Shown: one piece after another, positions 44,860-45,788 of the stretch
Layout of the letters: every line of letters starts with the position of its first letter
How positions within the stretch are numbered: position 1 is the stretch's first letter
Program-made: the position numbers and the translations under genes
Notes under the pieces: model-generated
Told to the model about the DNA's origin: nothing
The model's database searches: none
Seen by the model: the letters and a program-made list of their open reading frames with translations, nothing else
Origin: a virus
IMG/VR virus record: IMGVR_UViG_3300010885_011653
Location: 29,447-93,446 of that record
Reading direction: 5' to 3' (one strand)
DNA length: 64,000 nucleotides

Positions 44860-45288
44860 ATGACCTGGCTTTTCGAAAATTCCTCTGTGGAAACACTACC
44901 CGAAGACTGTGTTGGATTCGTTTATTTGATTACTAATAAACTGTCCGGCAGGAAGTATATTGGAAAAAAGTTAGCAAAATTTAGTAAAACTAGTTATCGT
45001 GTGGTAAAATTAAAGAACGGTAACAAGAAGAAAAAAAAGATTAGAAGTAAAATAGATTCAGATTGGCAAGAATATTATGGCTCTAGTCCAGAGTTAACTC
45101 GAGATGTAGCAGCACTGGGCATAGAAAATTTTACAAGAGAAATACTTTATTACTGTCAATCAAAATCAGAATGTAGTTATATAGAAGCAAGAGAACAATT
45201 TTCACGCAAAGTGTTAGAAACAGACGAATACTATAACGGACACATACAGGTCCGTGTACATGGCTCACACATTATCAACAAGATTTAA
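44860..45288 (+). CDS. Stand-alone GIY-YIG endonuclease
   Basis: GFVYLITN...KYIGKK, YYGSS, conserved E in YIEARE, YYNG; 142 aa with no separate DNA-binding domain. Confidence 0.8.
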   Translation: MTWLFENSSVETLPEDCVGFVYLITNKLSGRKYIGKKLAKFSKTSYRVVKLKNGNKKKKKIRSKIDSDWQEYYGSSPELTRDVAALGIENFTREILYYCQSKSECSYIEAREQFSRKVLETDEYYNGHIQVRVHGSHIINKI

Positions 45289-45329
45289 TCTTCAGACACT
45301 AAGTCTAACCGCAGTAAATCACATCAACA

Positions 45330-45700
45330 GTATATAGGCTAGCGCAGGCTAAACATCATGCGCCTATGAAAACCGGCTTAATGGCACGGGGACAGAAGAC
45401 TCACCGCTGTAGTGAGCACTCAATCAGTATCCTTAATAGGACCAAGATCACTAATTGCCGTGGTTTGATTGTTTGAAGATTAATTTAAGGCTAAAAAGAC
45501 GTGCTAGCGATAGCACACGGTCGATGTGTATGTTAGCATGTACGTATTGATCCGCCGTTGTATAAAGACGCAACTCGAGGTACCGGACAACCGCCTCTGT
45601 AATGTTGTAATGCTAAGTGACTGTGCTACTCGGATGATGACATAGTTCTATTCTTTGCCCTGTGCGGGCAAAGTGTGACCAATTAATCTGGATGATAACT
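45330..45700 (+). ncRNA. Putative large structured ncRNA, family unrecognised
   Basis: No plausible CDS. At least 9 helices, several with G-U pairs on the plus strand, a GCGA tetraloop, crossing helices and a duplicated GTGAC-N9-YGGATGATRAC motif. Confidence 0.6.
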
Positions 45701-45744
45701 TAAAAACAGCATTATGTCTTTAATACTTTTAGAAGAAGAAAACG

Positions 45745-45788
45745 ATCTATGAGCGCAAGCGAAATAGATAGATATGCGTAGCATATCT
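45745..45788. repeat. Two adjacent palindromic hairpins
   Basis: ATCTAT-gagcgcaagcgaa-ATAGAT (45745-45769) and AGATATGC-GTA-GCATATCT (45770-45788), abutting the stop codon of the 72-aa ORF. Confidence 0.6.

What the first reader, a model, noticed from the sequence alone, without database searches (positions are those of the whole stretch)
44860..45787. Candidate large structured ncRNA directly downstream of a stand-alone GIY-YIG nuclease
Seen: this 500-bp non-coding gap between convergent genes is by far the largest gap in a window where genes mostly overlap or abut. It is packed with helices: GCGCA/TGCGC plus ATAG/CTAT (45334-45367), CTCAC/GTGAG (45400-45416), TCCT/AGGA (45430-45441), GTGCTA-GCGA-TAGCAC (45501-45516, GNRA loop), a long stem at 45518-45554 with several G-U pairs, GAGG..CGG-ACAA-CCG-CCTC (45577-45597), GACTGTG/CATAGTT (45619-45647) and CTTTGCCC/GGGCAAAG (45653-45673). 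The G-U pairs work only on the plus strand, which argues for an RNA co-oriented with the nuclease. CACGG/CCGTG (45385-89/45458-62) crosses CAATCAG/TTGATTG (45421-27/45465-71), which would form a pseudoknot. GATTAATT (45478-85) can pair long-range with AATTAATC (45681-88). Known: homing-type GIY-YIG enzymes usually carry an extra DNA-recognition domain, which this 142-aa protein lacks, although T4 endonuclease II is also a small stand-alone enzyme. Inference: a nuclease-RNA ribonucleoprotein (possibly RNA-guided), a new ribozyme, or an RNA involved in replication initiation.
Basis: partly seen in the sequence, partly recalled or inferred. Interest (0 to 1): 0.88.

Follow-up and report, generated by a model that had tools for sequence, protein, structure and literature searches.

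The report
Extended Polynucleobacter-1 twin-box phage RNA
The gene-free gap behind a small nuclease gene of this uncultured freshwater T4-like phage encodes a real, doubly knotted non-coding RNA of about 450 bases; its first third is the orphan Polynucleobacter-1 motif catalogued in 2010, the rest is uncatalogued and carries one 7-letter word twice, and its function is still unknown.

Summary
The 500-nt gap (45289-45787) is real and is the largest in the window. It holds a plus-strand structured RNA. Window 45337-45474 is a full-length match to Rfam RF01718, Polynucleobacter-1 (96.9 bits against a cut-off of 37). Weinberg et al. 2010 already noted that this motif lies downstream of the PSSM2_218 gene family, which I show is this GIY-YIG nuclease. 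That removes part of the novelty. The 3' two thirds (45475-45788) match no Rfam family but are conserved in over 130 related phage loci. They have covarying helices and a pseudoknot. A 7-nt word occurs twice ("twin boxes") and is identical within each RNA in 124 of 126 members, although it changed at least 27 times across the family. The core also occurs with two other 5' domains. The nuclease is single-copy, old and strongly constrained, so it is not a recent selfish invader. In three loci an unrelated PD-(D/E)xK nuclease takes its place. The RNA starts 10-25 nt after the nuclease stop codon in many loci, so co-transcription is likely. No function is shown. My preferred reading, at low confidence, is a ColE1-RNA-II-like anchor to template DNA. 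This scan has reached the same "twin-box RNA" verdict before on at least 64 other genomes.

The parts
44860..45288 (+). SegE-like GIY-YIG nuclease, 142 aa, catalytic domain only (GFVY ... KYIG motifs, Lys-rich insert)
   Evidence: PF19835 E 2.9e-32 over residues 3-129. phrog_447. Translation. 37% identical to P-SSM2 PSSM2_218, E 3e-18. Single copy in the 93-kb record and in two ~345-kb genomes.
45337..45474 (+). 5' domain = Polynucleobacter-1 RNA (RF01718), with helices P1 45342-46/45359-63, P3 45400-04/45412-16, P4 45430-33/45438-41, P5 45446-51/45460-65 and closing helix 45421-25/45467-71
   Evidence: cmscan 96.9 bits, cut-off 37, model positions 1-141 of 141. Helices 85-100% canonical with double changes.
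45337..45350 (+). Pseudoknot 1: 5' end GGC (45337-39) with the P1 loop (45348-50)
   Evidence: 45338/45349 G-C 42, A-U 17. 45339/45348 100% canonical. 45337/45350 89% canonical.
45501..45516 (+). Hairpin Pa, GUGCUA-GCGA-UAGCAC
   Evidence: 5 of 6 pairs with changes on both sides.
45518..45553 (+). Long hairpin Pb with loop UUAGCA (45533-38)
   Evidence: 12 of 14 pairs with changes on both sides; many G-U pairs.
45533..45616 (+). Pseudoknot 2: Pb loop 45533-38 with UGCUAA 45611-16
   Evidence: 96% canonical, 5 of 6 pairs with double changes; slid controls 10-44%.
45570..45608 (+). Helix Pc (45570-74/45604-08) enclosing hairpin Pd (45577-97), which holds the invariant GGUACCGGACAACCGCC (45579-95)
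   Evidence: Pc 94% canonical in type A with G-C/C-G/A-U types. Pd 97-99.7% canonical. Invariant columns.
45619..45647 (+). Weak hairpin Pe (45619-25/45641-47) showing twin box 1 in its loop: CUC 45629-31 plus the word GGAUGAU 45632-38
   Evidence: Own-versus-cross duplex energies p = 7e-4. Word identity.
45653..45673 (+). Hairpin Pf, CUUUGCCC-UGUGC-GGGCAAAG; its 5' strand can alternatively pair with 45563-67
   Evidence: 98% canonical, 4 pairs with double changes. Alternative helix: 4 pairs 84-100% canonical, one covarying.
45687..45696 (+). Twin box 2: UCU 45687-89 plus the word GGAUGAU 45690-96
   Evidence: Word identical to box 1 in 124 of 126 members. Three word positions changed at least 27, 27 and 14 times in both boxes in step.
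45697..45744 (+). A-rich spacer
   Evidence: Median 31 nt in 115 loci, 71% A+T (45% A) against 54% in the RNA body.
45745..45769 (+). Hairpin H1: variable stem around the conserved UGAGC-GNNA-GCGAA (a GNRA-type loop flanked by G-A mismatches, sensible only on the plus strand)
   Evidence: Motif present in 115 of 123 loci; flanking stem complementary in 105.
45770..45788 (+). Hairpin H2 (8 bp, GUA loop); on the minus strand it scans as the terminator of the convergent 72-aa/hub genes
   Evidence: Terminator-like site on the minus strand; conserved in relatives.

Best explanation
SHOWN. The gap encodes the full-length form, about 450 nt (45337-45788, plus strand), of the RNA whose 5' third is catalogued as Polynucleobacter-1 (RF01718). 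It is modular. A variable 5' domain comes first; three types exist, and this window has the Polynucleobacter-1 type. It is followed by a conserved pseudoknotted core with the invariant GGUACCGGNCAACCGCC hairpin. Next comes a 'twin-box' module (box 1 in a hairpin loop, hairpin Pf, box 2), then an A-rich spacer and two terminal hairpins. It belongs to freshwater T4-like giant myophages. It always sits behind a single-copy, strongly constrained small nuclease gene next to sbcCD.

INFERRED (about 0.6). It is made as the 3' part of the nuclease transcript, because in many loci only 10-25 nt separate the stop codon from the RNA.

INFERRED (about 0.5). It works with the nuclease.

PREFERRED MECHANISM (about 0.25; the likeliest single mechanism I can name). 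The purine-rich box 1, shown in a hairpin loop, anchors the transcript to the template strand at box 2, beside the A+T-rich spacer. This would nucleate a persistent R-loop, as recalled for ColE1 RNA II. The neighbouring structure-specific nuclease (GIY-YIG, or PD-(D/E)xK in some phages) would cut that R-loop to start replication or recombination.
For: Identity: RF01718 at 96.9 bits, full length. The published context matches, because PSSM2_218 is a homologue of this nuclease.

RNA reality: on 96 sequences 93% of cells pair against 38-53% when partners are slid; the covariation score is 0.385 against at most 0.108; 0 of 500 shuffles reach the observed value. Two pseudoknots covary. G-U cells number 373 against 48 A-C cells, which fixes the strand.

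Breadth: the core was found by nhmmer in 64 of 75 GIY-selected loci, and twin boxes in the rest, including a third type. There are 133 non-redundant loci, 68 of them with the Polynucleobacter-1 domain. Type-B loci have no Rfam hit.

Linkage: 67 of 75 RNA-selected loci have the GIY-YIG gene upstream at 40-87% identity. A PDDEXK_15 nuclease stands next to the RNA in L101, L143 and L087. The two nucleases are mutually exclusive in the records seen. The RNA stays downstream when ORFs are inserted after the nuclease. The RNA starts 10-25 nt after the stop codon.

The nuclease is not selfish: amino-acid identity is 81%, yet four-fold-site identity is 0.44 against 0.31-0.34 in neighbouring genes. There is one copy per ~345-kb genome.

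Twin boxes: identity in 124 of 126 members, with at least 27 in-step changes. A reader that tracks that many changes cannot plausibly be a protein or an unlinked gene. No complement exists within 3 kb either side or in the window. The word is 78% purine and the spacer is 71% A+T. L084 shows a precise box-to-box deletion, so the repeats do misalign as DNA.

ColE1 precedent: RNAII forms an R-loop that is cut by RNase H to make the primer (PMC6317783). That an upstream RNA II loop pairs with the template DNA is recalled from Masukata and Tomizawa 1990 and was not read here.
Against: The locus lies between convergent genes. GC and AT skews turn near 25-40 kb, not at 45.5 kb, so nothing marks an origin here. 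The boxes share only 7-8 nt, and fixed differences flank them (CUC against UCU), which an anchoring role would not require. The nuclease family is widespread without this RNA in cultured phages. Melnitz was scanned with the core model and has no match. P-SSM2 carries a homologue in another gene context. Blastn of the locus found no match in 50,697 phage records, while the protein matched 512 of them. One 92.6-kb fragment (L092) has the RNA with neither nuclease. Adjacency to a nuclease could be plain synteny next to sbcCD.
Confidence: 0.3

Rival explanations
1. An independent trans-acting ncRNA whose nuclease neighbour is mere synteny. In this reading the twin boxes bind two copies of one RNA from the phage or the host. 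That RNA could be an sRNA, a tRNA loop or an mRNA site, with the boxes acting as a sponge, decoy or two-site clamp.
For: The nuclease family exists widely without the RNA. L092 has the RNA behind MazG with no nuclease in 92.6 kb. A 7-nt single-stranded word shown twice, once in a loop, resembles seed or kissing sites.
Against: A separate partner would have to change in step with both boxes at least 27 times. No complement was found in the window or in loci of up to 15 kb. A non-homologous nuclease takes the same position beside the RNA in three loci.
Confidence: 0.22
2. A cis-acting 3'-UTR element of the nuclease mRNA. It would protect the transcript from 3' exonucleases, insulate convergent transcription, or tune nuclease translation through alternative folds.
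For: It starts 10-25 nt after the stop codon. It ends in two stable hairpins, one of which is also the minus-strand terminator. The alternative pairing of 45563-67 with Pf hints at a switch.
Against: About 450 nt with two pseudoknots, an invariant 17-nt hairpin and twin boxes is far more than a stabiliser needs. The RNA is kept 1-2 kb away from the nuclease when ORFs are inserted. L087 has it upstream of the nuclease and L092 has it behind MazG. No complement to the nuclease's translation start was seen, and the motif upstream of the start does not follow the word type.
Confidence: 0.12
3. An RNA-guided nuclease particle, as the first reader proposed and HEARO/OMEGA-like in logic. The RNA would be scaffold and guide, and the GIY-YIG domain would cut a target complementary to the words or to the variable inserts beside them.
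For: There is tight nuclease-RNA linkage, with replacement by another small nuclease. The nuclease lacks any DNA-binding domain. The boxes are short, variable and single-stranded.
Against: Only about ten word variants exist, differing mostly by G/A. That is too little diversity for targeting. Both 'guides' are identical. A 142-aa domain has no known way to unwind DNA. No mobile-element ends or target-like complements were found.
Confidence: 0.08
4. A ribozyme or self-processing RNA, for instance one that cuts or joins at the two boxes using one internal guide.
For: The RNA is large, knotted and has invariant nucleotides, as large ribozymes do. Two identical sites would suit one active site acting twice.
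Against: No Rfam ribozyme or intron family matches. No internal guide complementary to the word exists. There is no interrupted host gene.
Confidence: 0.05
5. Not an RNA at all: a DNA element such as iterons or a protein-binding site, or a missed small protein gene.
For: The direct repeats resemble iterons. A box-to-box deletion occurs as DNA (L084).
Against: Compensatory changes occur in more than ten helices, and there is strong G-U over A-C asymmetry. No conserved ORF is present.
Confidence: 0.02

Closest known systems
Polynucleobacter-1 RNA motif (Rfam RF01718; Weinberg et al. 2010, Genome Biol 11:R31, PMC2864571)
   Same: Window 45337-45474 is a full-length member (96.9 bits). It has the same helices, the same fresh-water setting, and the same upstream gene family (GOS11034 / PSSM2_218-like, which is this GIY-YIG nuclease). 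Its function was unknown then and remains so.
   Different: The catalogued motif is only the first 138 nt of an RNA of about 450 nt. The conserved 3' core, the second pseudoknot, the twin boxes and H1/H2 are not in Rfam. The core also occurs with two other 5' domains that the Rfam model does not find. In 2010 no phage copy was known, whereas here the carriers are T4-like phage contigs. The upstream gene was not then recognised as a nuclease.
ColE1 RNA II replication pre-primer
   Same: This is a working analogy only. Both are large folded transcripts with alternative pairings. In ColE1 RNA II an upstream loop sequence is repeated downstream so that RNA can pair with template DNA. Both have an A+T-rich stretch after it and need a nuclease to process the hybrid.
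   Different: There is no sequence or structural homology. ColE1 uses host RNase H and an antisense RNA I. No origin function, R-loop or antisense regulator is shown here. The locus lies between convergent genes.
HEARO / omega RNA with IscB (nuclease-associated RNAs of the OMEGA systems)
   Same: Both are large structured RNAs genetically coupled to a nuclease gene.
   Different: Omega RNAs overlap the 5' side of a large RuvC/HNH protein gene inside a transposon and carry one long variable guide. Here the RNA is 3' of a 142-aa GIY-YIG domain, not in a mobile element, with two identical 7-nt words of low diversity. There is no Rfam match.
Free-standing GIY-YIG homing endonucleases of T4 (SegA-G)
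   Same: The protein's catalytic domain belongs to the SegE-like family (PF19835).
   Different: It has no DNA-binding C-terminal domain. It is single-copy and syntenic, with near-saturated synonymous sites and 81% amino-acid identity. This is the behaviour of an old core gene, not a sporadic selfish one.
cow-rumen-2 RNA (RF02947)
   Same: A weak resemblance in the layout of 45520-45619: a hairpin with a UUAGCA-like loop, CCGCC, and a bulged hairpin.
   Different: The score is 21.1 bits against a cut-off of 66, E = 0.23 on 701 nt. It is not a member.

Membership tests
Polynucleobacter-1 RNA (RF01718) | Covariance-model score at or above the curated gathering score, over the whole model | tested here: met
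   96.9 bits against 37, model positions 1-141 of 141, E 1e-21.
Polynucleobacter-1 RNA (RF01718) | Consensus helices kept by compensatory change in relatives | tested here: met
   P1 100%, P3 99%, P5 98% and the closing helix 100% canonical, with double changes. P2 could not be scored cleanly because of alignment register.
Polynucleobacter-1 RNA (RF01718) | Lies downstream of a GOS11034 / PSSM2_218-like gene (context noted by its authors) | tested here: met
   Supplement text. PSSM2_218 against the window's protein: 37% identity, E 3e-18.
SegE-like GIY-YIG nuclease domain (PF19835) | Profile score above the curated cut-off; GIY and YIG motifs present | tested here: met
   111.9 bits against 25. 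GFVY at residues 19-22 and KYIG at 32-35. Catalytic activity was not tested.
Free-standing homing endonuclease (Seg/Tev type) | Separate DNA-binding domain after the catalytic domain | tested here: not met
   The domain covers residues 3-129 of 142 aa, and no other Pfam hit was found.
Free-standing homing endonuclease (Seg/Tev type) | Sporadic, recently spread, often multi-copy distribution | tested here: not met
   Present at the same site in all 80 related loci. One copy per ~345-kb genome. Four-fold-site identity is 0.44 while amino-acid identity is 81%.
RNA-guided nuclease systems (OMEGA/HEARO, CRISPR) | Variable guide segment with complementary targets; large effector; mobile-element or array context | tested here: not met
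   About ten word variants. No complements found. The protein is 142 aa. No HEARO or related Rfam hit.
ColE1-RNA-II-type primer RNA | Upstream RNA segment identical to a downstream non-template segment, allowing RNA-template pairing | tested here: met
   The twin boxes lie 58 nt apart and are identical in 124 of 126 members. Whether they pair with DNA is untested.
ColE1-RNA-II-type primer RNA | Persistent R-loop, nuclease processing and origin activity | not testable with these tools
Composition skew is uninformative or negative at the locus.
Group I intron or known self-cleaving ribozymes | Match to a curated model; interrupted host gene | tested here: not met
   No Rfam match in the window or in 11 type-B loci. 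The flanking genes are intact.
cow-rumen-2 RNA (RF02947) | Score at or above the gathering score | tested here: not met
   21.1 bits against 66.

The most novel reading that the evidence does not exclude
Giant freshwater T4-like phages use a dedicated ~450-nt knotted RNA that clamps itself to its own template DNA through the twin boxes. This would build a programmed R-loop or branched structure. The adjacent minimal nuclease (GIY-YIG, or interchangeably PD-(D/E)xK) would cut that structure to fire replication or recombination. It would be a phage counterpart of ColE1 RNA II with its own nuclease.
Probability: 0.2. Interest if true: 0.85.

Novelty: new variant of a known kind. Interest (0 to 1): 0.6.

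Why it matters
Polynucleobacter-1 has been an orphan motif since 2010, with no known carrier or function. This locus and its relatives establish several points:
- The carriers are giant T4-like phages.
- The catalogued motif is only the first third of a much larger, doubly knotted RNA.
- The conserved part is the uncatalogued core, which is shared by at least three 5'-domain types.
- The partner gene is a minimal nuclease that can be swapped for an unrelated nuclease.

Large, complex-folded RNAs tied to a nuclease have been productive before: HEARO became the omega RNA of IscB. The twin boxes show a rare signal, two direct repeats that change in step at least 27 times. This demands a nucleic-acid reader and gives a direct experimental handle, namely single against double box mutants. 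At the least, the Rfam model should be extended and two new sister models added.

Tried and rejected
1. Thermodynamic signal: the MFE z-scores are about 0 on both strands, so this is of no use as evidence.
2. Other Rfam families: the only hits are cow-rumen-2 at 21 bits and a snoRNA at 17 bits. Nothing was found in 11 type-B loci. ARAGORN found no tRNA or tmRNA.
3. Cultured phages: blastn of the locus against 50,697 phage records found no match. The closest cultured homologue of the nuclease is in Methylophilales phage Melnitz. Only 150 nt follow it there, and it has no core match.
4. Bacterial genomes: 80 loci holding the exact 16-nt core word gave only one weak hit with model R1. That hit lies inside a 565-aa ORF and is chance.
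5. A cis partner for the word: none was found within -300 to +330 nt. There was no excess of cognate over non-cognate complements across whole loci, 70 against 57 expected. The 64-kb window holds none.
6. Operator-mimic idea: a GATGATAA-like motif lies upstream of the nuclease start, but it does not follow the word type and is not a general promoter motif in the window.
7. S1 x S2 pairing, and pairing of S2 with the sequence after box 2: no better than cross controls.
8. k-turn / C-D box, CsrA-site, anticodon-loop and small-ORF readings of the boxes: I considered these against the sequences, and the AGAUAAU-type variants do not fit them.
9. Selfish homing-endonuclease reading: rejected on synonymous-site divergence and copy number.
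10. H1 as a hammerhead: it has only two stems and the CUGA core is not kept (sequences).
11. Origin signal from skew: none at the locus.
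Full report
WHAT THE WINDOW IS. The window is part of a 93-kb IMG/VR record (CheckV estimate 25% complete) of a T4-like myovirus. Around the finding the genes are:
- gp47/SbcD at 41319-42335
- a DUF6071 gene at 42332-43054
- gp46/SbcC at 43042-44811
- a 142-aa SegE-like GIY-YIG protein at 44860-45288
- the gap
- on the minus strand, a 72-aa ORF at 45788-46006 and a baseplate-hub gene at 46012-46845
- further on, the gp20 portal

Relatives reach 345-347 kb. The closest cultured homologue of the nuclease (52% identity) is in Methylophilales phage Melnitz, family Kyanoviridae.

CHECK OF THE OBSERVATION. The 500-nt gap is real and is the largest in the window. Taken alone, the sequence folds no better than shuffled versions (z = -0.10), so helices seen by eye carry no weight. 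All the evidence for structure is comparative.

An Rfam scan gives one hit above threshold in the 64 kb: RF01718, Polynucleobacter-1. It lies at 45337-45474 on the plus strand, scores 96.9 bits against a cut-off of 37, and covers the full model.

The authors of that motif wrote that most copies lie downstream of genes of family GOS11034. They noted possible homology to PSSM2_218 of cyanophage P-SSM2, and said no copy had been seen in a purified phage. PSSM2_218 is annotated 'NAD synthetase'. It aligns with the window's nuclease at 37% identity, E 3e-18. That the gene is a GIY-YIG nuclease, and that the carriers are T4-like phages, is added here.

THE REST OF THE GAP. A search with the nuclease protein returned 80 related loci. 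There it sits at the same place after sbcC at 73-87% identity, and almost always 400-500 nt of ORF-free DNA follow. Only 14 of 50 of those records match RF01718. Yet a profile of window 45474-45713 finds 64 of 75 loci.

A nuclease-blind scan for the invariant word GGTACCGGNCAACCGCC gave further loci, for 133 non-redundant sequences in all. Of these, 68 have a Polynucleobacter-1-like 5' domain and 65 do not. The latter ('type B') have no Rfam hit at all. Nine GIY-selected loci hold a third type, which lacks the GGUACC hairpin but keeps the 3' module. In the end every one of the 75 GIY-selected loci with enough flank carries the RNA (L074).

STRUCTURE.
- On 62 type-A sequences, helices P1, P3, P5 and the closing helix of the Rfam domain are 98-100% canonical.
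- Downstream, Pa (45501-16), Pb (45518-53), Pc (45570-74/45604-08), Pd (45577-97) and Pf (45653-73) are supported by double changes.
- With covariance model R1, 96 sequences give 93% paired cells against 38-53% for slid partners. The covariation score is 0.385 against at most 0.108, and 0 of 500 shuffles reach it.
- Two pseudoknots covary: the 5' end with the P1 loop (45337-39 x 45348-50), and the Pb loop UUAGCA with 45611-16 (96% canonical).
- G-U cells outnumber A-C cells 373 to 48, so the plus strand is the RNA.
Hairpin H1 (45745-69) has a conserved UGAGC-GNNA-GCGAA centre that is sensible only on the plus strand. It is present in 115 of 123 loci. Hairpin H2 (45770-88) follows.
- Segment 45563-67 repeats the 3' strand of Pf and can pair with its 5' strand: four pairs are 84-100% canonical, and one covaries. 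This suggests a possible switch.

THE TWIN BOXES. Box 1 is CUC plus GGAUGAU (45629-38). Box 2 is UCU plus GGAUGAU (45687-96). They flank Pf. Across the family the 7-nt word varies: AGAUGA, GGAUGA, AGAUAA and GGAUAA each lead in 21-35 sequences, and there are rarer words such as ACAUGAA, GAAUGAU, UGGUAAU and AUGAAGA. Within an RNA the two copies are identical in 124 of 126 members. Two members carry a single mismatch, and one locus (L084) has a precise box-to-box deletion.

On a tree built from the rest of the core, the three variable word positions changed at least 27-28, 27-28 and 14-15 times, in both boxes alike. This is identity covariation, not complementarity. Box 1 tends to lie in a hairpin loop (p = 7e-4). 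Box 2 is unpaired and is followed by a spacer with 71% A+T. The word itself is 78% purine. No Watson-Crick complement of the word occurs within the RNA, within 3 kb either side, or in the window.

THE NUCLEASE.
- It is a bare catalytic domain.
- There is one copy in each of two ~345-kb genomes, each next to the single RNA copy.
- Its amino-acid identity to relatives (81%) exceeds that of SbcC (65%) and the hub protein (40%). Its four-fold sites are nearly as scrambled as theirs, 0.44 against 0.31-0.34. It is therefore an old gene under strong purifying selection, not a recently spreading homing gene.
- In many loci the RNA begins 10-25 nt after its stop codon. That leaves no room for a separate promoter outside the coding region and argues for co-transcription.
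- Among 75 RNA-selected loci with room, 67 have the GIY-YIG gene upstream on the same strand, at identities from 40 to 87%.
- In L101 and L143 the upstream gene is instead a PDDEXK_15 nuclease (PF24608; PHROG label 'RusA-like resolvase'). In L087 the same family lies just downstream of the RNA.
- GIY-bearing genomes lack PDDEXK_15, and the PDDEXK contigs, which are fragments, lack the GIY-YIG gene.
- One fragment (L092) has the RNA behind MazG with neither nuclease.
- Conversely, the nuclease family is common in cultured phages (512 records by tblastn), where the RNA was not found. The evidence is that blastn of the locus found no match in the phage collection, Melnitz has no core match, and P-SSM2 carries its homologue in another gene context.

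So the RNA needs the nuclease locus more than the nuclease needs the RNA.

HOW IT MOST LIKELY WORKS.
- Shown: a conserved, knotted, plus-strand RNA of about 450 nt, modular in its 5' domain and genetically coupled to a small nuclease.
- Inferred: it is co-transcribed with the nuclease.
- The twin boxes must be read by something that follows at least 27 changes. A protein or an unlinked gene is implausible, and no linked complement exists. The most economical reader of one box is the complementary strand of the other. That strand exists only as DNA, or as antisense RNA, which would pair everywhere and so would need no repeat.
- I therefore favour, at about 0.25, an RNA-to-template-DNA anchor. 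Box 1 RNA in its loop would pair with the template strand at box 2, next to an A+T-rich stretch, giving a persistent R-loop or branched structure. The neighbouring structure-specific nuclease would cut it.
- ColE1 RNA II is the working precedent. The R-loop, the G-rich element and RNase H processing are cited from PMC6317783. The loop-to-template pairing of Masukata and Tomizawa 1990 is from memory.
- Against this reading: the genes here are convergent, skew gives no origin signal, the identity spans only 7-8 nt, and there are no transcript data.
- The rivals are a trans-acting RNA with an unknown RNA partner, a 3'-UTR element, an RNA-guided particle, and a ribozyme. They are scored in their own sections.

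COMPARISON AND NOVELTY. Membership in RF01718 is met for 45337-45474. The rest is outside any catalogued family. The protein is a member of PF19835 but fails two hallmarks of homing endonucleases. This scan's earlier agents reached the same 'extended Polynucleobacter-1 twin-box RNA' verdict on other genomes. I re-derived it independently before reading them.

- the PD-(D/E)xK replacement
- the synonymous-site argument that the nuclease is not selfish
- the third 5'-domain type
- the count of in-step changes
- the Pf alternative pairing
- the argument for a DNA reader

VERDICT. A real and interesting RNA, partly known, with function open.

Noticed in passing
L084:8488-8568: A natural variant of the RNA in which everything from box 1 to just before box 2 (including hairpin Pf) is precisely deleted. 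This is as expected from misalignment of the two boxes as DNA. Model R1 still scores it at 60.5 bits.
   Followed up: partly
L101:3893-4423 (-), L143:335-853 (-), L087:8380-8883 (+): A PDDEXK_15 (PF24608, phrog_244 'RusA-like resolvase') nuclease of 167-176 aa stands next to the twin-box RNA in place of the GIY-YIG gene. The two families were mutually exclusive in all records checked.
   Followed up: yes
L004:3440-4453, L005:536-1606, L026:3436-4152, L051:3428-4255, L073:3468-5300, L075:3431-4261: In some relatives one or two ORFs of 238-356 aa are inserted between the nuclease and the RNA. None matches Pfam, and the two tested against PHROGs (L004, L051) have no match there either.
   Followed up: partly
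window 42332-43054: A DUF6071 gene sits between sbcD and sbcC. Among 80 related loci only L068 shows a homologue there, so it looks like a lineage-specific insertion inside the gp47-gp46 pair.
   Followed up: no
window 45788-46845 and relatives: The 72-aa ORF directly after the baseplate-hub gene is conserved (32-65% identity) and follows the hub gene on the same strand wherever both were seen. The frameshift itself was not tested.
   Followed up: no
about 8-35 nt upstream of the GIY-YIG start in L122, L014, L045, L039, L016 and many other loci: A conserved (G/C)ATAACTA motif lies at variable distance before the nuclease start. In the window it reads GATGATAATTAAC at 44847-59. It is not enriched elsewhere in the window (4 matches against 8 expected), so it is not a general promoter word.
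   Followed up: partly
window 17631-29546: A 3971-aa minus-strand ORF within the structural gene block, presumably a giant fibre or virion protein.
   Followed up: no
window 45697-45744 and the same place in relatives: In many relatives the spacer after box 2 holds AUCGCUUCGCUC, which is complementary to the conserved centre of H1 (GAGCG..AGCGA). This would be a second possible alternative pairing at the 3' end.
   Followed up: no
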